NCBI GenBank assembly: GCA_030648815.1
Contig: JAUSHA010000029.1
Location: forward strand, 1-19,473
Direction of reading: 5' to 3'
DNA from: a bacterium
Lineage (GTDB): Bacteria > Patescibacteriota > Minisyncoccia > Minisyncoccales > MHMH01
DNA length: 19,473 nucleotides
Shown here: piece by piece, positions 1 to 6,515 of the stretch
Layout: the number at the start of each line of letters is the position of its first letter
How positions within the stretch are numbered: position 1 is the stretch's first letter
Translations under genes and position numbers: made by a program
The notes under the pieces: generated by a model
Told to the model about the DNA's origin: nothing
Seen by the model: only the letters and a program-made list of their open reading frames with translations
The model's database searches: none

Positions 1-1284
1 ATCTTTAATATCTATTTCTTCGAGAGTGACGCCTAAAGCTTCGCACAGTTTAATCGCATTATTTTTGGTGCGATCAGATGTGCCAAATCCGGGCATAGTC
101 AGGGCAATGATGTTTTTTCTGTCCCAGCCCAGCAGATCAAAAGTTTTTACCGCAGTAAGCAAAGCCAAGGCTGAGTCTAGACCGCCGGAAATGCCGATAA
201 GAAGTTTGCCGGCTGATCCGGTTTCCAATCTCTTGGCCAAGGCCGCCGTCTGGTCTGAAAAAATTTCTTGACATACATTATCTCTCTGCGATGGATCCAA
301 AGGTATAAAAGGATGCGCCGGCACCGCTCTTTTAAGCGGACTGCCAGTCGGTTCCGGCAAATCAAACTCCACCATCCTGAATTTTTTATTTCCCAACTCT
401 TGAGTATTATCGCCAAAACTTGTTATCTGTCTGCGGTCAAAAAGCAGTCTTTCAAAATCAATATCTTGAAAAACGAGCTGGCTTGATCTTGAAAACCTTT
501 CCGATTCGGCCAAGATTGCGCCGTTTTCGGCAATAATGCCGTGGCCGTCAAAAATTACATCAGTGGTTGATTCTCCGACGCCGCACGAACAGTAGGCATA
601 TGCTGATATGCACTTAGCTGATTGGCTCGAAACTAAGCTCCTCCGGTAATCCGCCTTGCCGATAATTGAATTGCTGGCCGAAAGATTCAAATGCAATGTC
701 GCGCCGGCCAAGGACTGATAAGCGCTTGGCGGAATAGGCACCCAAAGATCTTCGCAAATTTCCACGCCAACAACCATTTGCGGAAAATTAGCCGCCTTGA
801 AAAGAATATCCGTTCCAATCGGCACTGTCTTCCCAAAAAGTTTAATCCTTCTGGATCTAAGATTTTTTGCCGGAGAAAACCATCTTCTTTCATAAAATTC
901 TTTGTAAGTCGGTATGTAGCTCTTGGGCACAATCCCAAGAATCTTGCCTTGATGCATCATCACGCCGCAGTTGAACAACTGATTGTCGCAAATAATGGGC
1001 GCTCCGACAGCTATCAGTATTTCACAGTCTTTCGTTTCATTAAGAATTCTGCCCAACGCCTTTTGCGACGCTTCCAGTAAAACTTCCTGCTGAAAAAGAT
1101 CAGCTGCCGTATAGCTTGTCAGGCACAATTCCGGAAGCAACAAAACATCAACGTTGTTATTTTTAGCTTCCTCTATCAGCAAACAAATCTCTGTCGCGTT
1201 AAACTTAGGATCAGCCACCTTAACTTTCGGTATGGCTAAAGCCACTCTGGCGAAACTAAAATCTCGAGGCTTGTAACTTTTCAT
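1..1284 (-). CDS. nadE: Glutamine-dependent NAD+ synthetase, N-terminal part (CN-hydrolase glutaminase domain plus the start of the NAD synthase domain). The 3' end lies beyond the window start.
   Basis: ATG at 1284..1282 (rc) preceded by AAAGGAGA. The frame is open to position 1, so the ORF track (complete ORFs only) does not list it. My translation begins MKSYKPRDF...LLPELCLTSY...VEICEDLW (nitrilase/CN-hydrolase Glu-Lys-Cys triad region). It then reaches ...LLIGISGGLDSALALL..., the SGGxDS PP-loop of NAD synthetase. Confidence 0.88.
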   Translation of the reverse strand, partial: MKSYKPRDFSFARVALAIPKVKVADPKFNATEICLLIEEAKNNNVDVLLLPELCLTSYTAADLFQQEVLLEASQKALGRILNETKDCEILIAVGAPIICDNQLFNCGVMMHQGKILGIVPKSYIPTYKEFYERRWFSPAKNLRSRRIKLFGKTVPIGTDILFKAANFPQMVVGVEICEDLWVPIPPSAYQSLAGATLHLNLSASNSIIGKADYRRSLVSSQSAKCISAYAYCSCGVGESTTDVIFDGHGIIAENGAILAESERFSRSSQLVFQDIDFERLLFDRRQITSFGDNTQELGNKKFRMVEFDLPEPTGSPLKRAVPAHPFIPLDPSQRDNVCQEIFSDQTAALAKRLETGSAGKLLIGISGGLDSALALLTAVKTFDLLGWDRKNIIALTMPGFGTSDRTKNNAIKLCEALGVTLEEIDIKD

Positions 1285-1330
1285 GTTTCTCCTTTTTCTA
1301 TTATCAAAGTACGGTCGAAAAATTATAACA

Positions 1331-1360
1331 AAAAGCCCCGTTGTTGTCAACAGGGCTTTT
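1331..1360 (-). terminator. Rho-independent terminator ending the vWA/kinase operon.
   Basis: Hairpin AAAAGCCCCGTTG-TTGT-CAACAGGGCTTTT. On the minus-strand transcript it is followed by UUUUUGUUAUAAUUUUU. It lies immediately downstream of the 1367 stop. Confidence 0.7.
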
Positions 1361-1366
1361 ACATTT

Positions 1367-2230
1367 TTAAATCTTGGTTTGCTGGGTCTTCAGCAGGGTC
1401 GCTACCTCATTGGCCCGAGCTGCACCGCGAGTTGCGGCCAGACGAGCCAGATACTTATCAATATCGCCGAATTCCTTGGCGATGATGCCATGCACTACAT
1501 TGGTAAGCCGAAGGAAGTTGCTCCCCAATTCAATGAAATGATCATTCTCTTCCACCATTAATCTCTGCAGTCTTTTCATTGATACGTGTTCGCTGCAACC
1601 GATTACATAGAAAGCTTTGATTTTCTTTTTCAGGGCATCCAGCTCTATCTTCCAATCAACGCCATTCGGACACCCATTATCCCTCCCGGCATATCCTATT
1701 CCATGAGGAACGGAGTCAATCACGGCAAGCACAATTGTATTTGTATCTTGCAAATCCCATGTATTTATCTCCTTGATAGCGCACTCATATGCCTCGGGCT
1801 CGTCATCGCCGCCGGCATTCTCAATGCTATTCAGGTTATTTTTCAGGACTGCGGGATCGCCGGAAAAAGCTGTCGGCTGAAACCATAAACGCCCGTCGCA
1901 ATGATCGCTCACGCCCGTAAAGGAAAATTCTATCTTACCGGCTAATTCCGGAATAAGATCGACAATCTCTGCGCAGAGATATTCCGCCTTCTTTCTTAAA
2001 TTATCTATGTACTCCCTGGTACTTCCGCTTACATCCATTATCAGTAAGATATTCACTTTTCCCGTGGGTCGGGTAATCTTCACGACAACCGGACTCGCTT
2101 GAGCCGCTCTTCTTGTCGGTGGCGGGGTCGATCTTGCCGGTGGCGTGGACGGTGGCGCAGGCGTTGGTCGGAAAAATGACGATCCTCCGCCACTTGGTAC
2201 CCTCTTGTAGCTTTCGTCGCTGTAGCTCAT
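1367..2230 (-). CDS. von Willebrand factor A (vWA) domain protein with an N-terminal Pro/Thr/Ser-rich low-complexity segment.
   Basis: 287 aa ORF. ATG at 2230 is preceded by AAGGAGGG. MIDAS-type motif ILLIMDVSGST (DxSGS). Low-complexity PTPAPPSTPPARSTPPPTRR near the N-terminus. Last gene of the operon. Confidence 0.8.
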   Translation of the reverse strand: MSYSDESYKRVPSGGGSSFFRPTPAPPSTPPARSTPPPTRRAAQASPVVVKITRPTGKVNILLIMDVSGSTREYIDNLRKKAEYLCAEIVDLIPELAGKIEFSFTGVSDHCDGRLWFQPTAFSGDPAVLKNNLNSIENAGGDDEPEAYECAIKEINTWDLQDTNTIVLAVIDSVPHGIGYAGRDNGCPNGVDWKIELDALKKKIKAFYVIGCSEHVSMKRLQRLMVEENDHFIELGSNFLRLTNVVHGIIAKEFGDIDKYLARLAATRGAARANEVATLLKTQQTKI

Positions 2231-2257
2231 TGGTCCCTCCTTTTTATTTTTTGCACC

Positions 2258-3079
2258 CTATGTTTGGTGCGGTTGCCAATCTTGATTTACATAATTGGTC
2301 CGGATCTTGAAAAAAATATCCTGCATCTCGCCGGCTGATTTATAACGTTCCAGCGGATTTAATTTCATCGCTTTCATTATAGCCGCCGATAACTGCGAAT
2401 GAATCGCAGAATCAATTTCATGCGGCGCTTTTAGATCTTTATCCGATTTCAATTTAATCGCTTCCAGCGGTAAAACATTAGTCAAGGCATAGTAAGCAGT
2501 GGCTCCCAAGCTATAAAAGTCGCTGGCTGGCGTACAACATTCTCCGCGATACTGCTCGGGCGAAGCGAAGTACTTAGTGTAAGAAATCTTACCTCCGCCT
2601 TCGTTTTCGGCCACAGTAACTTTATTTTTAGCTATTCCGAAGTCAACCAATACGGCTCGGTGCTCTCCCAAATTAAGAATGATATTTCCCGGCTTAATAT
2701 CACGATGGACGATGTCCATACGATGCAAATAAGCTAAGCCGGCCAATATCCGATCTAAAATCCAACAAATAGCATCTTCGCTGAACGGCTTTTTCAAATC
2801 AATAAAATCCTGCATTGACTTGCCTCTAATGTAATCCATCACCAGAAAATAATGCCCCTGATATATAAAGAAATCCTTAACTGCCGGGAAAGAAGAATGT
2901 CTGATATGCCGATAAAGTATTTTTGCTTCTTCCAGGAATTGCTTTTCCGCTTCCGGACCTTTTAGGATCAATTCTTTAATAACAACCTCTTCCTGCAAAA
3001 GGATATGCTTGCCTAAATATATCCTACCCATACCTCCTTCTTTAAATGGCTTATCAAACTCATATTGATATATTCTCAA
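2258..3079 (-). CDS. Hanks-type Ser/Thr protein kinase, catalytic domain only.
   Basis: Motifs seen: Gly-loop FKEGGMGRIY, VVIKEL (VAIK Lys), HRDIKPGNIIL (HRDxKxxN), VDFGIAK (DFG), FASPEQ (APE). The start appears to be TTG at 3079 (the track lists it as M), with GGGAGGTGA nine nt upstream. It is in the same frame as the upstream phosphoesterase, separated by TGA plus two codons. Confidence 0.88.
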   Translation of the reverse strand: MRIYQYEFDKPFKEGGMGRIYLGKHILLQEEVVIKELILKGPEAEKQFLEEAKILYRHIRHSSFPAVKDFFIYQGHYFLVMDYIRGKSMQDFIDLKKPFSEDAICWILDRILAGLAYLHRMDIVHRDIKPGNIILNLGEHRAVLVDFGIAKNKVTVAENEGGGKISYTKYFASPEQYRGECCTPASDFYSLGATAYYALTNVLPLEAIKLKSDKDLKAPHEIDSAIHSQLSAAIMKAMKLNPLERYKSAGEMQDIFFKIRTNYVNQDWQPHQT

Positions 3080-3085
3080 AGTGCA

Positions 3086-3799
3086 TCACCTCCCTTCAAA
3101 TAATCGTTCGGCTAAAAAGACAGGCAGTCCAGCTTTCATTATTTTCTTAGCTGTCTTCTTAATATAGTAATCTATCCTAACCAGAGAAAATGTCAAACTG
3201 TCAGTATCCAGCAAGCCATAGCAAGCCGATGGATTCTTGTCTCTTGGTTGACCGACACTGCCGACATTTATGATATATCTCACGCTGTCTTTTAATTCTA
3301 CGCCGTCTTTAAACACGTCGCCATCGCTCGTAAAAATCGCAGGGTAATGCGAATGACCGACAAAACAAATCTTTTCCTGAAAACCGTTAAACTGACTTAA
3401 GGCTTCGATGGCGTTAAAAATATAATGGAATCTCCCTGGCTTAATGGGCGAGCCGTGAACCAACAGAATATCCGGCAATCTTACCGTAAAAGGCAGGCAA
3501 GCCAGATACTGCAGATTTTCCGATTTCAATAGAGCCTTCGTCCATAAAGCCGCTAGTTTGGCGGCCGGATTGAAATGCTCCAGCCATGAATCATCAACCA
3601 TCACATAATCGTGATTTCCGACGACAGTCTTAACGCCCATCTTTTTTATTCTTTCAACGCACTCATTCGGATTAGGGCCATAACCGACAATATCTCCCAG
3701 GCACAGAATTTCATCAACTCCATTTTTTTTAATGGATTTCAGAACACTCTTTAACGCTTCTAAATTTCCATGGATATCAGATATTACGGCGTAGCGCAT
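3086..3799 (-). CDS. Calcineurin-like metallophosphoesterase (PPP-type motifs). Probably the phosphatase partner of the adjacent kinase.
   Basis: 237 aa. Motifs ISDIHGN (GDxHG-like), LGDIVGYGP (GDxxxxG), GNHD (GNH[DE]), VGHSH. ATG at 3799 with AGGAGGG SD. Whether the substrate is a phosphoprotein or a phosphodiester cannot be told from the sequence. Confidence 0.78.
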   Translation of the reverse strand: MRYAVISDIHGNLEALKSVLKSIKKNGVDEILCLGDIVGYGPNPNECVERIKKMGVKTVVGNHDYVMVDDSWLEHFNPAAKLAALWTKALLKSENLQYLACLPFTVRLPDILLVHGSPIKPGRFHYIFNAIEALSQFNGFQEKICFVGHSHYPAIFTSDGDVFKDGVELKDSVRYIINVGSVGQPRDKNPSACYGLLDTDSLTFSLVRIDYYIKKTAKKIMKAGLPVFLAERLFEGR

Positions 3800-3821
3800 C
3801 TTTTCCCTCCTAAAAGAATTT

Positions 3822-3857
3822 AAAGGGACGCAATGGATTTTCCAAATGCGTCCCTTT
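3822..3857 (-). promoter_or_regulatory. Intra-operon stem-loop between the FHA gene and the phosphoesterase gene.
   Basis: AAAGGGACGCA-(14 nt loop)-TGCGTCCCTTT, an 11-bp perfect stem in the 62-nt gap. It is not followed by a U-tract on the minus transcript, so it is more likely an attenuator or processing/stability element than a full terminator. Confidence 0.45.
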
Positions 3858-3861
3858 CTTC

Positions 3862-4401
3862 TTAGACTACTTCAAAAATCACGTATCCCTCGCTGCCGCC
3901 AAAACGGAAACGAGAACCAACCAGAATCTCTTCTTCTTGATCTTTTAGAAGTTCCTTCCAATCAGTATTCTGCGGCTTAATCATTGTCTTAGCTCCGCCG
4001 ATGGCTCTAAGATACAGACGGCCCATTCTCCGGATGATAATCGCTTGCTTCCGGGAAACAGTATAGCCGACATCCTGGCCAATTTTCACTTTCTCGGCAA
4101 ACTTGGTCAGATCCACATCGGGTATTATGCCCTGGTCAAGATCTGTCCGGCCGATCGTAAATCCGAAATCATCTTTAGGAAGCTCGAATTCCCGGTCAAT
4201 AACATTACCTCCGACCACTAAACCGCAAGCCCTGCCAATAATACCGACTGCGCTCGCTGGAGTATGAGCTGCAGAAGAAGAAGCAATAATTGGAACACTT
4301 GCTCCCACTGTTACTTCTAACGGTTCACTGCAGACTTCGCACAAAATAGCTCCCGGCTTGTTATCTAAGCCGCAGTTATTGCACTTTATTTCTCCGGCCA
4401 T
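3862..4401 (-). CDS. Zinc-ribbon plus FHA (forkhead-associated) domain protein.
   Basis: N-terminal CNNCG...CEVCS (CxxC...CxxC). FHA-like core FTIGRTDLDQ...VSRKQAIIIRR...LVGSRFRFGG. ATG at 4401 with AAGGAG nine nt upstream, one nt after the vWA stop. The track's 4425 start is a TTG inside the upstream gene. Confidence 0.72.
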   Translation of the reverse strand: MAGEIKCNNCGLDNKPGAILCEVCSEPLEVTVGASVPIIASSSAAHTPASAVGIIGRACGLVVGGNVIDREFELPKDDFGFTIGRTDLDQGIIPDVDLTKFAEKVKIGQDVGYTVSRKQAIIIRRMGRLYLRAIGGAKTMIKPQNTDWKELLKDQEEEILVGSRFRFGGSEGYVIFEVV

Positions 4402-4402
4402 T

Positions 4403-5614
4403 TTACTTAGCTCCTTTCTTGCCAATTATGCCCTTGTTGGCTTCAGTCACCGTGACCGTCCTTAGGGTTCTTTTGGCATCCTCATCACTCTTGGCTAAGG
4501 TCTCCACTTTTTTGGCCATACCAGTATTCCCGGACGTCGTAAAAAGAGTTTGGGCCCTATTGTATTGCCCGGATAGGGTCGCTTTTGTCCCCTCGGTATT
4601 CAAAACCGTATTCCTTACTGTCTTATCAACCGGCGAGATCAGCTTTTCATCGGCTGTAAAGTTGACAACCACATTCATGGATTTGACTCCTGCGCCAGCA
4701 ACGCCCTGCCAGCTTAACGCAATAGTGGCTATTTTAAAATCGCCAACTGCTTTCCCGGCGTGAACTTTAGTCTTGATAAGATATGCCTGTCCGCGGACAT
4801 CAAGCCCGGGGAATTCGTCCTTAACAATCTTACCGGAAACCGGTAAAGCTAACTGCTGGGGAACATATTTAAACGCTTCCAAAATTTCAACGACCGGCTC
4901 TGCCGTAATACCAATTCTCACATCAAGATCTTGAACGCTTTTTAGATTTTCCATTTCATCTTCCAGGCGAAGCCTCATGGCACCAACTTGCTTAACGTGC
5001 TCAAAATATGAGCCGTGGCCGGCAACTTCTGCCATATTTTTAAGAAATTTCTCGTTGTAATCAATGCCCGTGCCGAAAACGGCAAATGGAATTCCGAGCC
5101 TATTAGCTTGGCGCGCTAACTCAAGGCAAGCTCTTTCTTCAGCAGCAGCTGACGGAGCATTAACGTTGCCGTCAGTGAAAATGATAATTTTGGGCAAAGA
5201 TCCGTCCATTGGTTTTACATCTTCCAGAGTGTATCTTAGGGGGTTCGAGAGATTAGTACTGCCGCCGGTGCGTACACCATCAATCAGTTTTTTTATTGCG
5301 TTAATATCTCCCACAATCGTCGGATCAAGTATTACCTTCATGGTGTCGTCAAAAACTACGATGCAAAGACGGTCCTTGCCCTGGCGCAAAAGACTCAAAG
5401 ACTCATTTACCGCGGCCTTCAGCGCCTGGATCCTTGTCAGCCCTCCGTCGGCCGGCTCATCCATGGAACCGGAACGGTCCAAAATCTTCCTAAGATCGAG
5501 CGCAAGATCAGCCGATTGCTTTTGGCTGTCTCGCAGCAAGCGAAGTAAAAAAATTACTTCGGCCTCATCCGTGATGGGTAAATACCGCTGACCCAATGTT
5601 AGTTCAACCTGCAT
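4403..5614 (-). CDS. vWA domain protein (~200 aa vWA plus ~200 aa C-terminal beta-rich domain of unknown type).
   Basis: 403 aa. MIDAS motifs LDRSGSMDE (DxSGS), GGSTNLSNPL, IIIFTDGNVN. Strong SD GAAGGAGGTG before ATG 5614. Confidence 0.8.
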   Translation of the reverse strand: MQVELTLGQRYLPITDEAEVIFLLRLLRDSQKQSADLALDLRKILDRSGSMDEPADGGLTRIQALKAAVNESLSLLRQGKDRLCIVVFDDTMKVILDPTIVGDINAIKKLIDGVRTGGSTNLSNPLRYTLEDVKPMDGSLPKIIIFTDGNVNAPSAAAEERACLELARQANRLGIPFAVFGTGIDYNEKFLKNMAEVAGHGSYFEHVKQVGAMRLRLEDEMENLKSVQDLDVRIGITAEPVVEILEAFKYVPQQLALPVSGKIVKDEFPGLDVRGQAYLIKTKVHAGKAVGDFKIATIALSWQGVAGAGVKSMNVVVNFTADEKLISPVDKTVRNTVLNTEGTKATLSGQYNRAQTLFTTSGNTGMAKKVETLAKSDEDAKRTLRTVTVTEANKGIIGKKGAK

Positions 5615-5653
5615 TTGGCACCTCCTTCTTTAATTGTCAAAAATCTCCTTTGA

Positions 5654-6286
5654 CTAAAAGACATTAACACACCGTCGAAGCATGTCAAGAACCGGGCAAA
5701 AATCGGATTCTTCTTTCAGGGCAATTTTATCTTCATCTAACACAATAACGCATTCTGAAAAAAAATTATTCCGGTATTCCGGCGACAAATAAATCTTCCT
5801 GAAAAACTTTCTAACTTTTTGCTTAGCCTTAGTTTCGTTATCATACTTTTCCAGAATATCTTCCATAATCTTGACGCCTTCTTCAAACGCCCGCAATTCT
5901 ATATATGGGCACTGCCTTTTGGCTGAAAGCCGCATAAACGGGCAATCAAGCCATTTTGTCAAATCTTCGTTCTCAAAAAAAATAATGTGGCCGAGCTCAT
6001 GGGCAAACTCAAATTCCTGACGAAATAAATCTGCTCTATCTTCCCCGGTCACCAAAAGCGTTTCCAAAGGAACCGAAATAATTTTCCAAAGGCGAGGTAT
6101 TCTCAATCTGCCTATTTCGTCAATCGTTAAGGGATTGATTACTCCCCACCAGCGAATGTTCGAAGAGGAATTGTGGGGAACGAAAAAAACATTCATTTTC
6201 ACGGCAAGCTCAATTAAGTCGGCAAAAATAAAATCCTTGTCTCTTAATCTGTCACGAGCAAATCTGTTAAACTGGCGATCATTCAT
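5654..6286 (-). CDS. HExxH zinc metallopeptidase-like protein (ImmA/IrrE / DUF955-like signature). First gene of the operon.
   Basis: 210 aa. FEFAHELGHIIF contains HExxH with the HELGH form typical of ImmA/IrrE-family peptidases. AAAGGAG SD before ATG 6286. Stop is 40 nt upstream of the vWA start. Confidence 0.55.
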   Translation of the reverse strand: MNDRQFNRFARDRLRDKDFIFADLIELAVKMNVFFVPHNSSSNIRWWGVINPLTIDEIGRLRIPRLWKIISVPLETLLVTGEDRADLFRQEFEFAHELGHIIFFENEDLTKWLDCPFMRLSAKRQCPYIELRAFEEGVKIMEDILEKYDNETKAKQKVRKFFRKIYLSPEYRNNFFSECVIVLDEDKIALKEESDFCPVLDMLRRCVNVF

Positions 6287-6515
6287 TTGTCAAAGAACTC
6301 CTTTCATAGGATAGAAAACATTAGCATTTCCTCATAAAAAAATCAATGTCTCAAAAACAATAATATAAAATCCTTACTATTCACAATATAATTTTAATGT
6401 GATAGCCTAATTTAGGTCAACGAGTTCGTTTAAAATTTAACTCGCCGAGGAGGAAAAAGAGAATGACTTAAAAAAAACGAGATGCCGCATTGGTTCTAAA
6501 AAAACAAAGGAGGTA
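6287..6515. promoter_or_regulatory. AT-rich divergent promoter region between the minus-strand signalling operon and the plus-strand MVP gene.
   Basis: 229-bp very AT-rich spacer holding both 5' ends. It contains AAAGGAGGT (6506..6514) and two tiny uORF-like ATG...stop units (ATGACTTAA; ATGCCGCATTGGTTCTAA). Exact -35/-10 boxes are not assignable by eye. Confidence 0.4.

What the first reader, a model, noticed from the sequence alone, without database searches (positions are those of the whole stretch)
1367..6286. Six-gene vWA-centred phospho-signalling operon (HExxH peptidase, vWA, Zn-ribbon-FHA, MPP phosphoesterase, Ser/Thr kinase, Pro-rich vWA)
The six genes are tightly coupled (1-nt gap vWA to FHA; kinase in the same frame as the phosphoesterase behind a stop), each with its own SD. 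The architecture resembles the vWA + phosphatase + kinase triads (TerY-P-like) proposed as stress or conflict signalling modules. It differs in three ways: a calcineurin-type rather than PP2C phosphatase, an added FHA reader with a zinc ribbon, a second vWA with a PT-rich linker, and an ImmA/IrrE-like HExxH peptidase at the head. ImmA/IrrE-type peptidases typically cleave a repressor or partner protein upon a signal, which suggests a proteolytically triggered switch.
Basis: partly seen in the sequence, partly recalled or inferred. Interest (0 to 1): 0.7.

Follow-up and report, generated by a model that had tools for sequence, protein, structure and literature searches.

The report
Bacterial ArnA/ArnB-like phospho-switch operon
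The six genes are a real operon whose core is a bacterial counterpart of the archaeal ArnA/ArnB phospho-threonine switch, encoded with its own kinase and phosphoesterase; this is a new variant of a known signalling design, not a new kind of system.

Summary
Six minus-strand genes (6286 to 1367) each have a Shine-Dalgarno site, with gaps of 1-62 nt, a promoter-like site upstream and a strong terminator downstream.

All the domain calls hold except the peptidase.

- **403-aa vWA protein:** it folds confidently (pLDDT 90.9) into the ArnB-type architecture: a vWA domain inserted in a beta-sandwich, then a Thr-rich four-helix bundle. ArnB is among its top structural matches.
- **179-aa protein:** a RanBP2-type zinc ribbon plus FHA domain, like ArnA, its only PDB sequence match.
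- **Kinase and metallophosphoesterase:** both keep all catalytic residues.
- **287-aa protein:** a divergent vWA domain behind a Pro/Thr-rich linker.
- **HExxH protein:** an orphan family with only sub-threshold M78 similarity and an unresolved fold. It is missing from three related loci, so a protease-triggered switch is unsupported.

TerY-P membership fails on all three defining features.

The system is rare. It occurs in Nealsonbacteria-like CPR bacteria, and a collinear version sits in a contig labelled as an Asgard archaeon.

Most likely mechanism: the kinase phosphorylates the vWA protein's C-terminal threonines, the FHA protein binds them, and the phosphoesterase resets the switch. The output is unknown.

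The adjacent Major Vault Protein gene is a lineage-specific insertion with huge-phage relatives.

The parts
6391..6420 (-). Promoter-like site (TTGACC-18-TAAAAT) upstream of the first gene, in the 229-nt divergent intergenic region shared with the MVP gene
   Evidence: consensus scan only; the overall count does not exceed shuffles; sequence
5654..6286 (-). HExxH protein, 210 aa. An orphan family with invariant E93, H96-E97-x-x-H100, E130, E135, E136 and four invariant Cys (115, 126, 179, 197). A possible M78-like zincin, unproven. An accessory component.
   Evidence: alignment; M78 at 21.2 bits against a cutoff of 22, helix only, in 7 of 9 members; 9 clusters; 2 representatives out of 1.84 billion; fold unresolved, no PDB sequence match; absent in L007, L010 and L011
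4403..5614 (-). ArnB-type tripartite vWA protein, 403 aa. N-terminal beta strands 2-27, vWA domain 38-225 with an intact MIDAS (D46, S48, S50, T120, D148), beta-sandwich 229-320, and a Thr-rich four-helix bundle 331-391.
   Evidence: VWA_2, 3e-14; only PDB sequence hit is ArnB, 8s05_A, 2.3e-5; MIDAS invariant; AF2 pLDDT 90.9; Foldseek top hits 4fx5, ArnB 8s05_A/B, 5a8j; 16.9% Thr in residues 321-403 against 4.4% elsewhere; 4 invariant and 12 mostly conserved Thr/Ser columns
3862..4401 (-). ArnA-type adaptor, 179 aa. A RanBP2-type zinc ribbon (C7-x2-C10-x3-N14-x6-C21-x2-C24), a low-complexity linker, and an FHA domain with invariant G84-R85 and S116-R117. SRKQA replaces SRxH, and the NG Asn is not conserved.
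   Evidence: the only full-length PDB match is ArnA 5a8i/8s05_C, 8.3e-6; the other matches are short RanBP2/NZF fingers; alignment; Pfam FHA in 12 of 12 members, best 1.7e-5, full model length; hhalign 99.2%, E = 1.6e-19, to a canonical Zn-ribbon-FHA protein
3086..3799 (-). Calcineurin-like superfamily metallophosphoesterase, 237 aa, with all metal ligands (D8, H10, D36, N62, H115, H149, H151). It belongs to the YfcE/ApaH-like/3RQZ group, not the PPP family. Presumed phosphatase of the switch; a variable component.
   Evidence: Metallophos_2, 4e-22; 3rqz, 1.8e-51; absent from the operon in L008, L009 and L010
2258..3079 (-). Minimal Hanks-type Ser/Thr kinase, 273 aa, kinase domain only. The Gly loop (G15, G16, G18), K35, E51, H125-R126-D127, N132, D146-F147-G148, S173-P174-E175 and the activation-loop T168 are invariant in 7 orthologues.
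   Evidence: (Pkinase, 7e-36)
1367..2230 (-). Second vWA-like protein, 287 aa. A conserved N-terminal MSYxDESY...FFRPTP motif, a Pro/Ser/Thr-rich linker (about residues 20-55), and a divergent vWA domain with D66-x-[S/T]-x-S70, GGD and D172-S-x-P-H-G. The Asgard orthologue carries an added C-terminal zinc ribbon like that of the FHA protein.
   Evidence: VWA_4 weak, 1e-3; alignment; hhalign against the vWA403 family: 94%, E = 1.4e-7, 150 columns; Asgard orthologue 37% identical, plus zinc ribbon
1331..1360 (-). Intrinsic terminator (13-bp stem, 6 GC pairs, T-rich tail) ending the operon. It overlaps a perfect TTGACA-17-TATAAT promoter for nadE.
   Evidence: nadE at 1284..1 on the minus strand

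Best explanation
The operon encodes a self-contained phospho-threonine switch of the ArnA/ArnB type.

**Shown here**
- The 403-aa protein has the ArnB architecture: a vWA domain inserted in a beta-sandwich, followed by a C-terminal four-helix bundle. That bundle is strongly enriched in conserved threonines.
- The next gene, 1 nt downstream, encodes an ArnA-type adaptor with a RanBP2-type zinc ribbon and an FHA domain.
- A catalytically intact minimal Hanks kinase and a catalytically intact metallophosphoesterase follow.

**Inferred, by analogy with the Sulfolobus ArnAB work**
- The zinc ribbon tethers the adaptor loosely to the beta-sandwich and bundle of the vWA protein.
- The cognate kinase phosphorylates threonines of the C-terminal bundle.
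- The FHA domain then clamps onto the phospho-threonines. This turns a loose complex into a tight one and changes which surfaces (MIDAS face, zinc ribbon) are free for downstream partners.
- The metallophosphoesterase resets the switch.

**Accessory parts**
- The 287-aa vWA-like protein, with its Pro/Thr-rich linker and acidic N-terminal motif, is a second scaffold or substrate. It parallels the second vWA protein ArnE/vWA2 that flanks arnA in Sulfolobus.
- The HExxH protein is a lineage-specific accessory of unknown activity.

The cellular output is unknown. The host is a Nealsonbacteria-like CPR bacterium that cannot use the switch for archaella.
For: - **Operon:** its reality and conservation are shown.
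- **ArnB-type fold:** the AF2 model has pLDDT 90.9 and pTM 0.88, with the element order beta, vWA, beta-sandwich, four helices. Foldseek's four best PDB matches are 4fx5 (TM 0.75), ArnB 8s05_A/B (TM 0.68-0.72) and ArnE/vWA2 5a8j. ArnB is the only PDB sequence hit. The MIDAS is invariant.
- **Thr-rich bundle:** 16.9% Thr against 4.4% elsewhere. T332, T336, T356 and T386 are invariant across 16 family members, including the Asgard and deltaproteobacterial ones.
- **ArnA-type adaptor:** ArnA is the only full-length PDB match (E = 8.3e-6). The zinc-ribbon pattern is RanBP2-type, as reported for ArnA. Pfam FHA is found in 12 of 12 members. hhalign gives 99.2% to a canonical Zn-ribbon-FHA protein that itself lies between an ArnB-like vWA gene, a kinase gene and a PP2C gene.
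- **Enzymes:** kinase and MPP catalytic residues are invariant.
- **Conserved core:** vWA, Zn-ribbon-FHA, kinase and the 287-aa protein stay collinear in a contig labelled Promethearchaeota, at 37-52% identity.
- **Mechanism of the reference system:** PMC6509490 and PMC12852372.
Against: - No biochemical step was tested. Phosphorylation of the C-terminal bundle, FHA binding and MPP action on protein are all inferred.
- Sequence similarity to ArnB and ArnA is low: 16-18% identity in the structural alignment, and the FHA region alone gives E = 0.84 against ArnA. The pair may be a distant relative rather than an orthologue.
- Pfam reported no hit in the C-terminal bundle, so no ArnB_C signature was seen.
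- The FHA domain lacks the conserved NG asparagine, and in the CPR members the SxxH histidine is Gln. Its phosphopeptide binding may be atypical.
- The MPP belongs to a group whose characterised relatives act on nucleotides (YfcE, ApaH-like). It is absent from three related loci.
- Structurally, 4fx5 from an actinobacterium matches slightly better than ArnB. Some remote tripartite vWA homologues sit in unrelated contexts.
Confidence: 0.62

Rival explanations
1. A TerY-P-like stress or anti-phage conflict module. A vWA sensor with a kinase and a phosphatase gates a defensive response, and the HExxH protein acts as effector or trigger.
For: - It shares the general logic of vWA plus kinase plus phosphatase.
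- The kinase scores well against kinase models from defence systems in PADLOC (PD-T4-6, mad6), though these are generic kinase-domain hits.
- The HExxH helix weakly resembles the M78 domains of RmrA and CapP.
- Divergence from a close relative is mosaic in the HExxH, kinase and 287-aa genes.
Against: - All three TerY-P defining features fail.
- PADLOC gives no hit for either vWA protein, the FHA protein or the MPP.
- No nuclease, NADase, pore or other effector is present in the operon.
- The locus sits among housekeeping genes (leuA-like, ychF, nadE), with synteny kept across lineages about 50% identical.
- No relatives were found in phage or plasmid collections.
- The mosaic patches have high dS as well, with dN/dS of 0.2 or less. 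This points to recombination, not diversifying selection.
Confidence: 0.1
2. A protease-gated switch. The HExxH protein is an ImmA/IrrE-type metallopeptidase that cleaves one of the co-encoded proteins on a signal, for example the Pro/Thr-linker vWA protein or the FHA adaptor's linker. That cleavage is the primary trigger, and phosphorylation modulates it.
For: - The HExxH motif is invariant, with conserved Glu residues 30-36 residues downstream (E130, E135, E136). This spacing resembles the HExxH...E arrangement of IrrE, which is my recollection and was not tested.
- 7 of 9 family members give weak M78 hits.
- The two best, non-significant fold matches of the poor model are PprI/IrrE and a zincin-like protein.
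- The gene is first in the operon, with a 39-nt gap to the next gene.
Against: - The M78 score is below the Pfam cutoff and covers only 25 residues.
- The family profile matches no peptidase in the PDB.
- The AF2 model is unusable at pLDDT 44.
- There is no HTH repressor partner of the ImmR type in the operon.
- The gene is absent from the Nealsonbacteria locus L007, the Asgard-labelled locus L010 and apparently L011, all of which keep the vWA/FHA core.
- Four invariant cysteines are not an M78 feature.
Confidence: 0.1
3. The switch exists, but its wiring differs from ArnAB. The FHA ligand is the kinase itself or the Pro/Thr-rich linker of the 287-aa protein. The metallophosphoesterase hydrolyses a nucleotide (Ap4A-like or cyclic) rather than phosphoprotein, which links the module to the neighbouring NAD and nucleotide genes.
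For: - The MPP's characterised relatives are YfcE, ApaH-like and SapH-type enzymes, and it is dispensable in three related loci.
- T168 in the kinase activation loop is invariant.
- The 287-aa protein has a conserved TP-rich linker.
- nadE, a NUDIX gene and a gene for a 186-191-aa protein that I read by eye as a nucleotidyltransferase (no Pfam hit) follow the operon in all CPR relatives that extend that far.
Against: - The strongest and most widely conserved Thr enrichment is in the C-terminal bundle of the 403-aa protein, the site used in ArnB (PMC12852372).
- The nadE block has its own promoter behind a terminator and is absent from the Asgard-labelled locus.
- PHROGs' best family for the MPP is a NinI-like Ser/Thr phosphatase.
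Confidence: 0.13
4. A vault-like assembly. The divergently transcribed Major Vault Protein homologue forms a shell, and the vWA proteins are its cargo or partners, as with the vWA-containing PARP4 and TEP1 of eukaryotic vaults. The operon would be its regulatory arm.
For: - An 830-aa MVP homologue (MVP_shoulder 3e-25, Vault_3 2e-12) starts 229 nt from the operon on the opposite strand.
- Both minor vault proteins of eukaryotes contain vWA domains.
Against: - The MVP gene is a 2.7-kb single-gene insertion. It is absent from the closest relatives, whose operon is otherwise about 92% identical at the DNA level.
- It is absent from all other loci carrying the operon.
- None of 15 viral contigs with MVP relatives carries any operon gene nearby.
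Confidence: 0.03

Closest known systems
ArnA/ArnB (with ArnE/vWA2, kinases ArnC/ArnD and phosphatase PP2A) of the Sulfolobus acidocaldarius archaellum regulatory network (PMC6509490, PMC12852372, PMC7472852)
   Same: - A tripartite vWA protein (vWA inserted in a beta-sandwich, plus a C-terminal helical bundle rich in Thr) is encoded next to a RanBP2-type zinc-ribbon-FHA adaptor.
- A second vWA protein lies in the same locus.
- Hanks-type kinase and phosphatase counter-players are present.
- ArnB and ArnA are the nearest solved structures by sequence, and ArnB is among the top three by fold.
   Different: - The host here is bacterial (CPR), and archaellum control cannot be the output.
- The kinase and the phosphoesterase are inside the same operon, whereas in Sulfolobus they are encoded elsewhere.
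- The kinase is a bare 273-aa domain, unlike ArnC with its OB and TPR-like N-terminal region.
- The phosphoesterase is a YfcE/ApaH-like MPP, not a PPP-type PP2A.
- The second vWA protein is a short, divergent form with a Pro/Thr-rich linker, not an ArnB paralogue.
- An HExxH protein is added.
- The FHA domain lacks the NG asparagine.
- Sequence identity is only about 17%.
Bacterial vWA-kinase-FHA-PP2C operons, for example Deinococcus radiodurans DRA0331-DRA0334 (bioRxiv 10.64898/2026.01.23.701218), and the metagenomic locus L013 found here (PP2C, ArnB-like vWA, Zn-ribbon-FHA, FHA-vWA-FHA, kinase)
   Same: - The same four functional roles (vWA scaffold, Ser/Thr kinase, FHA reader, phosphatase) sit in one operon.
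- L013's Zn-ribbon-FHA protein is homologous to the window's (hhalign 99.2%), and its vWA protein is a 25%-identical homologue.
   Different: - Those systems use PP2C, not an MPP.
- The Deinococcus kinase is membrane-anchored, and its phosphatase carries its own KI-FHA domain.
- Neither has an HExxH protein or a counterpart of the 287-aa protein.
- I did not compare the DRA0331-0334 sequences directly.
TerY-P triad (TerY vWA, PP2C, Ser/Thr kinase fused to a zinc ribbon or OB fold; Anantharaman et al. 2012 as summarised in PMC11090510)
   Same: A vWA protein, a kinase and a phosphatase are encoded together, and the triad is proposed to act as a phosphorylation-dependent switch.
   Different: - The vWA protein is not TerY-like (tripartite, no PADLOC hit).
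- There is no PP2C.
- The kinase has no fused zinc ribbon or OB fold.
- An FHA reader is present.
- The locus is not embedded in ter, restriction or defence loci.
Sec23/Sec24 core of the eukaryotic COPII coat, and other ArnB-architecture proteins (4FX5 Caci_2163, YfbK, WAV3), as discussed in PMC12852372
   Same: The same domain arrangement: zinc finger, beta-sandwich, vWA (trunk) and helical domain. Sec23/24 chains appear among the Foldseek hits (E about 1e-13).
   Different: There the zinc finger is fused rather than on a separate FHA protein. A gelsolin domain is present. No phospho-switch is known. TM scores are much lower (0.5-0.57).
Type VI secretion threonine-phosphorylation pathway PpkA/PppA/Fha1 of Pseudomonas aeruginosa (from my own knowledge, not tested here)
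   Same: It combines a Hanks kinase, a phosphatase, an FHA reader and a vWA domain (in PpkA) in a post-translational switch.
   Different: The vWA domain is periplasmic and fused to the kinase. The phosphatase is a PP2C. The output is a secretion machine encoded alongside. None of that is present here.

Membership tests
ArnA/ArnB phospho-switch module | Adaptor with an N-terminal RanBP2-type zinc ribbon and a C-terminal FHA domain (ArnA architecture) | tested here: met
   - The pattern C-x2-C-x3-N-x6-C-x2-C is conserved.
- There are PDB hits to RanBP2/NZF fingers, and ArnA is the only full-length match.
- Pfam FHA is found in 12 of 12 members.
- hhalign gives 99.2% to a canonical Zn-ribbon-FHA protein.
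ArnA/ArnB phospho-switch module | FHA phospho-threonine-binding residues (Arg of GR, Ser and His of SxxH, Asn of NG) | tested here: inconclusive
   G84-R85 and S116-R117 are invariant. His is kept in the Asgard and deltaproteobacterial members but is Gln in the CPR members. The NG Asn is not conserved (GGAKT aligns to ArnA's STNGT).
ArnA/ArnB phospho-switch module | vWA domain inserted in an eight-stranded beta-sandwich, followed by a C-terminal four-helix bundle (ArnB/ArnE architecture) | tested here: met
   - The AF2 model has pLDDT 90.9 with the right order of elements.
- Foldseek top hits are 4fx5, ArnB 8s05_A/B and ArnE 5a8j, with TM 0.61-0.75.
ArnA/ArnB phospho-switch module | Intact MIDAS site in the vWA domain | tested here: met
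   D46, S48, S50, T120 and D148 are invariant in 31 aligned homologues.
ArnA/ArnB phospho-switch module | C-terminal helical domain carrying multiple threonine phospho-acceptor sites | tested here: met
   At sequence level only: 16.9% Thr in residues 321-403 against 4.4% elsewhere, with 12 conserved Thr/Ser columns, 4 of them invariant. Actual phosphorylation is not testable here.
ArnA/ArnB phospho-switch module | Sequence signature of the ArnB C-terminal domain (ArnB_C, IPR040929) | tested here: not met
   Pfam reported no hit in residues 215-403 at E <= 0.01. I could not confirm that the library holds an ArnB_C model. The phmmer match to ArnB covers residues 31-214 only. Only the fold matches.
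ArnA/ArnB phospho-switch module | The genes for the two proteins are adjacent in one operon, with a second vWA gene in the locus | tested here: met
   There is a 1-nt gap between the vWA and FHA genes. The 287-aa vWA-like gene lies three genes downstream. This is conserved in all related loci.
ArnA/ArnB phospho-switch module | Phosphorylation-dependent tightening of the complex, and regulation of archaellum expression | not testable with these tools
   This needs biochemistry and genetics. The host is bacterial, so the archaellum output cannot apply.
TerY-P triad | TerY-like stand-alone vWA protein | tested here: not met
   PADLOC gives no hit for either vWA protein. The 403-aa protein is tripartite.
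TerY-P triad | PP2C-family phosphatase | tested here: not met
   The phosphoesterase is Metallophos_2/Metallophos. No PP2C is present in the operon.
TerY-P triad | Ser/Thr kinase fused C-terminally to a zinc ribbon or OB fold | tested here: not met
   The protein is 273 aa, and the kinase domain fills it. There are no extra domains. The definition is taken from PMC11090510.
ImmA/IrrE (peptidase M78) | Match to the family profile at or above the curated threshold | tested here: not met
   The score is 21.2 bits against a cutoff of 22, covering residues 84-108 only. Hits in 7 of 9 members are all weak. The family profile matches no peptidase in the PDB.
ImmA/IrrE (peptidase M78) | HExxH plus a downstream third zinc ligand | tested here: inconclusive
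   H96-E97-x-x-H100 is invariant. The candidate third ligands E130, E135 and E136 are invariant, but none can be assigned without a structure.
ImmA/IrrE (peptidase M78) | Zincin fold | tested here: inconclusive
   The AF2 model has pLDDT 44. Foldseek's best hits, PprI/IrrE (E = 1.3) and a zincin-like protein (E = 2.1), are not significant.
ImmA/IrrE (peptidase M78) | Adjacent HTH repressor or partner substrate of the ImmR type | tested here: not met
   No HTH protein is present in or next to the operon.
PPP-family protein phosphatase (calcineurin/PP2A type) | GDxHG, GDxVDRG and GNHE signature motifs, with closest relatives among the PPPs | tested here: not met
   The motifs here are DIHGN, GDIVGYG and GNHD. 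The best matches are 3RQZ, PF1291, YfcE, ApaH-like and SapH. The metal ligands of the wider MPP superfamily are all present.
Hanks-type Ser/Thr protein kinase | Gly-rich loop, beta3 Lys, alphaC Glu, HRD, DFG and APE-type motifs | tested here: met
   Pkinase E = 7e-36. All the motif residues are invariant in 7 orthologues.
Vault-type system (MVP with vWA partners) | Conserved linkage of MVP with the vWA operon | tested here: not met
   MVP is present only in the window. MVP relatives on 15 viral contigs lack the operon genes.

The most novel reading that the evidence does not exclude
The operon is the visible half of a larger regulatory supermodule shared by horizontal transfer between CPR bacteria and Asgard archaea. 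Its members would be the ArnB-like vWA protein, the ArnA-like Zn-ribbon-FHA protein, the minimal kinase, the second vWA protein, a second roughly 500-aa kinase with a long helical N-terminal region, and a short pyruvate-kinase-like protein.

In this reading the ArnAB/Sec23-24-type core is much older and more widely mobile than the Sulfolobales archaellum network suggests. The orphan HExxH/Cys4 protein would be a new metalloprotease family that processes one of the vWA partners in the CPR lineage.
Probability: 0.15. Interest if true: 0.6.

Novelty: new variant of a known kind. Interest (0 to 1): 0.45.

Why it matters
ArnA/ArnB has been studied as a Sulfolobales-specific regulator of the archaellum. 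Its three-domain vWA architecture was recently tied to the Sec23/24 core, but without evidence that the phospho-switch itself exists outside those archaea.

This locus shows the full switch packaged as one operon in a CPR bacterium: the tripartite vWA protein with a Thr-rich bundle, the RanBP2-zinc-ribbon-FHA reader, a cognate kinase and a phosphoesterase. A collinear counterpart sits in a contig labelled as an Asgard archaeon, and a more distant PP2C-containing version occurs in another bacterial metagenome.

That gives three things:
- a compact, experimentally tractable set of four to six small soluble proteins for testing the loose-to-tight model;
- evidence that the phosphatase slot is interchangeable (MPP, PP2C or none);
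- a rare look at eukaryote-like Ser/Thr signalling in the reduced genomes of the Candidate Phyla Radiation.

It does not reveal a new principle, and the output remains unknown.

Tried and rejected
- **HExxH structure.** The AF2 prediction from the 9-sequence family alignment gave pLDDT 44. The fold search on it gave nothing significant, so the peptidase fold could not be tested.
- **HExxH remote homologues.** The family profile found only 2 representatives among 1.84 billion protein cluster representatives. It matched no peptidase in the PDB, only chance Pat1 matches.
- **Wider distribution of the operon.** A genome-contig scan and a metagenome-contig scan with the FHA alignment returned one locus each. 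The system is rare, or too diverged for the pattern scans.
- **FHA region alone against the PDB.** ArnA was the only hit, at a non-significant E = 0.84. The Pfam scan and hhalign were needed to settle FHA.
- **The 287-aa protein against the PDB.** Neither the single sequence nor the family profile found anything. Only profile-profile comparison detected vWA.
- **TerY-P and defence reading.** PADLOC hits only the kinase domain, generically, and the HExxH helix, weakly. There are no phage or plasmid relatives.
- **Vault linkage.** Rejected, because MVP is an insertion absent from relatives and is not linked to the operon elsewhere.
- **Diversifying selection.** Rejected for the divergent patches in the HExxH, kinase and 287-aa genes. 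dS is also very high there and dN/dS is 0.2 or less, which fits recombination.
- **Other features.** No Rfam family or tRNA lies in the window. No flanking repeats mark the MVP insertion.
- **Remote tripartite vWA homologues.** Of the five sampled, only one (L013) has the full FHA-kinase-phosphatase context. One has a nearby FHA gene and three have unrelated contexts.

Full report
**1. Observation**

The window carries six consecutive ORFs on the minus strand, exactly within 1367-6286:
- HExxH protein, 6286-5654, 210 aa
- vWA protein, 5614-4403, 403 aa
- zinc-ribbon/FHA protein, 4401-3862, 179 aa from the ATG; independent gene calls on an identical metagenomic contig use the same start
- metallophosphoesterase (MPP), 3799-3086, 237 aa
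- Ser/Thr kinase, 3079-2258, 273 aa, TTG start
- a 287-aa protein, 2230-1367

The gaps are 39, 1, 62, 6 and 27 nt. Each start is preceded by an AGGAG/GGAGG-type ribosome-binding site, and the kinase is in the same frame as the phosphoesterase. A promoter-like site lies at 6420-6391. A strong intrinsic terminator at 1360-1331 (13-bp stem) closes the unit and overlaps a perfect sigma-70 consensus promoter for the next gene, nadE, which runs off the window end at 1284..1. These promoter and terminator calls are consensus matches only.

**2. What each protein is**

*Kinase.* Pkinase E = 7e-36. The Gly-rich loop, K35, E51, HRD (125-127), N132, DFG (146-148), SPE (173-175) and an activation-loop Thr (T168) are invariant in seven orthologues, including an archaeal-labelled one. 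It is a bare kinase domain.

*Phosphoesterase.* Metallophos_2 E = 4e-22, with all metal ligands invariant. It is not a PPP (calcineurin/PP2A) enzyme. Its motifs are DIHGN, GDIVGYG and GNHD. Its nearest relatives are the uncharacterised 3RQZ (E = 1.8e-51), PF1291, YfcE, ApaH-like and SapH proteins. "Calcineurin-type" is true only at superfamily level, and the substrate is open.

*403-aa vWA protein.* Its only sequence match in the whole PDB is chain A of 8S05, which is ArnB of Sulfolobus acidocaldarius (E = 2.3e-5).
- An AlphaFold2 model built on 31 homologues is confident (pLDDT 90.9, pTM 0.88). [quoted passage not shown]
- Foldseek's four best PDB matches are the proteins known to share this tripartite architecture: 4FX5 (TM 0.75), ArnB 8S05_A/B (TM 0.68-0.72) and ArnE/vWA2 5A8J. 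Sec23/24 chains follow.
- The MIDAS residues are invariant.
- The C-terminal bundle is 16.9% threonine against 4.4% in the rest of the protein. It has twelve conserved Thr/Ser columns, and four are invariant even in the most distant family members.
- In ArnB this bundle is the phosphorylated, FHA-binding region (PMC6509490, PMC12852372).

*179-aa protein.* Its N-terminus matches the RanBP2/NZF zinc-finger pattern C-x2-C-x3-N-x6-C-x2-C and hits such fingers in the PDB. This is the same finger type reported for ArnA.
- With family profiles, the only full-length PDB match is ArnA (5A8I and 8S05_C), at E = 0.0025 and then 8.3e-6.
- The FHA part alone is weak against the PDB (ArnA only, E = 0.84).
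- However, all 12 family members hit Pfam FHA over the full model (best 1.7e-5).
- The family aligns at 99.2% probability (E = 1.6e-19) to a canonical zinc-ribbon-FHA protein from locus L013.
- G84-R85 and S116-R117 are invariant. The SxxH His is Gln in the CPR members, and the NG Asn is not conserved, so the FHA domain is atypical.

*287-aa protein.* Pfam gives only a weak VWA_4 hit, and there is nothing in the PDB. Its family profile aligns to the vWA403 family at 94% probability over 150 columns, with DxSxS matching DxSGS. It also has a conserved N-terminal MSYxDESY...FFRPTP motif and a Pro/Ser/Thr-rich linker.

*HExxH protein.* H96-E97-x-x-H100, E93, E130, E135, E136 and four cysteines are invariant.
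- The similarity to ImmA/IrrE (M78) is below threshold (21.2 against 22 bits) and limited to 25 residues around the motif. It recurs weakly in 7 of 9 members.
- PADLOC and NCBIfam give similarly short hits to M78-containing proteins.
- The AF2 model is unusable (pLDDT 44), and its best fold matches, PprI/IrrE and a zincin-like protein, are not significant.
- The family profile finds no peptidase in the PDB.
- The family is an orphan: 9 clusters in 5.8 billion proteins and 2 representatives in an exhaustive HMMER search of 1.84 billion.
- Peptidase status therefore cannot be decided.

**3. Comparative genomics**

The window matches an NCBI MAG labelled only "bacterium". Its nearest named relative is a Candidatus Nealsonbacteria MAG (Patescibacteria/CPR).

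| Locus | What it carries |
|---|---|
| L004-L006 (proteins 84-99% identical) and L002 (51-73%) | the same six genes in the same order |
| L008, L009 | the operon without the phosphoesterase; L008's contig ends after the kinase |
| L007 (Nealsonbacteria) | the operon without the HExxH gene, and with an internally deleted FHA gene |
| L011 (deltaproteobacterial MAG fragment) | the vWA and zinc-ribbon-FHA pair |
| L010 (contig labelled Promethearchaeota, i.e. Asgard) | vWA (41% identical), zinc-ribbon-FHA (37%), kinase (52%), a GNAT gene, the 287-aa orthologue (37%, with an extra C-terminal zinc ribbon), a 520-aa kinase and a short pyruvate-kinase-like gene |

The last two genes of the Asgard-labelled locus also have orthologues downstream of the operon in the CPR loci. 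The kinase is 35-37% identical and the PK-like protein about 36%. There they lie beyond a nadE/NUDIX block that includes a gene I read by eye as a nucleotidyltransferase.

The conserved core is thus vWA, zinc-ribbon-FHA, kinase and the second vWA. The phosphoesterase and the HExxH protein are variable accessories.

A more distant bacterial locus (L013) has a PP2C gene, an ArnB-like vWA gene, a zinc-ribbon-FHA gene, an FHA-vWA-FHA gene and a kinase gene. The phosphatase slot is therefore filled by different enzyme families. Other remote tripartite vWA homologues sit in unrelated contexts. No relatives of the FHA or HExxH proteins occur in the phage or plasmid collections.

**4. Mechanism**

Shown: the architecture, the catalytic competence at sequence level, the Thr-rich bundle, the operon structure and its conservation.

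Inferred, from the Sulfolobus work in which ArnC phosphorylates the ArnB bundle sequentially and converts a loose zinc-finger-tethered ArnAB complex into a tight FHA-pThr complex (PMC12852372):
- The 273-aa kinase phosphorylates the C-terminal threonines of the 403-aa protein.
- The adaptor's FHA domain binds them.
- The metallophosphoesterase reverses the modification.
- The second vWA protein acts as an additional scaffold or substrate, as the second vWA gene ArnE/vWA2 flanks arnA in Sulfolobus.

I put 0.62 on this core model. The output is unknown. The genomic context is housekeeping (leuA-like, HI0933-like flavoprotein, ychF, nadE), not a defence island.

**5. Comparison with known systems**

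- **Closest:** ArnA/ArnB. Most architectural membership features are met. No ArnB_C sequence signature was detected, and the FHA signature is only partly kept. Functional features are untestable here.
- **Related theme in bacteria:** the Deinococcus DRA0331-0334 vWA-kinase-FHA-PP2C operon.
- **TerY-P:** fails all three defining features.
- **ImmA/IrrE membership:** not established.
partly supported. It is a vWA-centred phospho-signalling operon, but it is not TerY-P-like and there is no evidence for a protease trigger.

**6. Novelty and score**

This is a new variant of a known kind: a bacterial, operon-encoded ArnAB-type switch with an MPP in place of PP2A or PP2C, a bare kinase, a divergent second vWA protein and an orphan HExxH/Cys4 protein. 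It is collinear with a locus in a contig labelled as an Asgard archaeon.

It is of moderate interest (0.45). It widens the known range of a system considered archaeal and offers a compact experimental model. The principle is already known and the biological output is not visible.

**7. Side observations**

- The divergently transcribed 830-aa gene at 6516-9008 is a Major Vault Protein homologue (MVP_shoulder 3e-25; rat and human MVP E about 5e-20). It is a 2.7-kb single-gene insertion relative to the closest relatives.
- Its best relatives (42-51% identity, nearly full length) are on IMG/VR viral contigs of up to 501 kb, and on the huge-phage records LR756500-LR756503, up to 735 kb. None of the IMG/VR loci carries operon genes nearby.
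- Divergence between the window and L004 is mosaic. HExxH residues 1-90, kinase residues 61-180 and residues 61-90 of the 287-aa protein differ strongly, with high dS, while the flanks are nearly identical. This pattern indicates recombination.

Noticed in passing
window 6516-9008 (+); insertion about 6319-9047: An 830-aa bacterial Major Vault Protein homologue (MVP_shoulder 3e-25, Vault_3 2e-12; PDB MVP E about 5e-20) is transcribed divergently from the operon. It is a single-gene insertion absent from the closest relatives. Its nearest relatives (42-51% identity, nearly full length) are on viral contigs, including huge phages (IMG/VR contigs up to 501 kb; LR756500-LR756503, up to 735 kb). 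No partner gene is conserved next to it.
   Followed up: partly
window 2540-2900 (kinase codons 61-180), 6017-6286 (HExxH codons 1-90), 1961-2050 (287-aa protein codons 61-90), compared with L004: Divergence from the closest relative is mosaic. These patches have dN of 0.14-0.25 and dS of about 0.5 to 1.5 or saturated, while the flanking parts of the same genes are nearly identical. The kinase patch includes a 10-aa indel and the activation loop. The pattern fits recombination with a diverged allele, not positive selection.
   Followed up: partly
L002, L004-L007, L009 downstream of the operon; L010:14361-16951: A second kinase of 482-520 aa, with a long helical N-terminal region and a C-terminal kinase domain, is conserved near the operon in the CPR loci. 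So is a short (about 342 aa) pyruvate-kinase-like gene, seen in L008 and L009. Both are also in the Asgard-labelled locus (35-37% and about 36% identity). In the CPR loci a nadE/NUDIX block with a gene I read by eye as a nucleotidyltransferase lies in between. This region is beyond the window's end.
   Followed up: partly
L010:13259-14359: The Asgard-labelled orthologue of the 287-aa vWA-like protein carries a C-terminal zinc ribbon. It is about 59% identical over 22 residues to the zinc ribbon of the neighbouring FHA adaptor. This hints that both proteins dock on the same surface of the ArnB-like protein.
   Followed up: no
L007:2870-3256: In the Candidatus Nealsonbacteria MAG the FHA adaptor gene has an internal deletion (128 aa) that removes the GR and SR loops, and the HExxH gene is absent. 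This may be a decaying copy of the system or an assembly artefact.
   Followed up: no
window 11797-13198 and 14273-15794: Two further insertions relative to L004. The first carries a serine hydrolase gene plus an IS200-like Y1 transposase-domain gene (11838-13199). The second carries a 420-aa ORF with no Pfam or PHROG match (14413-15675).
   Followed up: no
window 1322-1360 (-): The operon's terminator hairpin overlaps a perfect TTGACA-17-TATAAT promoter with a TG extension for nadE. Termination of the operon and initiation of nadE therefore share the same 40 nt.
   Followed up: no
L013 (Logan SRR24079446 contig): A distant bacterial version of the module: PP2C, an ArnB-like vWA protein (420 aa), a zinc-ribbon-FHA protein (146 aa, canonical GR/SRRH/STNG), a 747-aa FHA-vWA-FHA protein, a 397-aa kinase and a small Kdo/RIO-like kinase.
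   Followed up: partly
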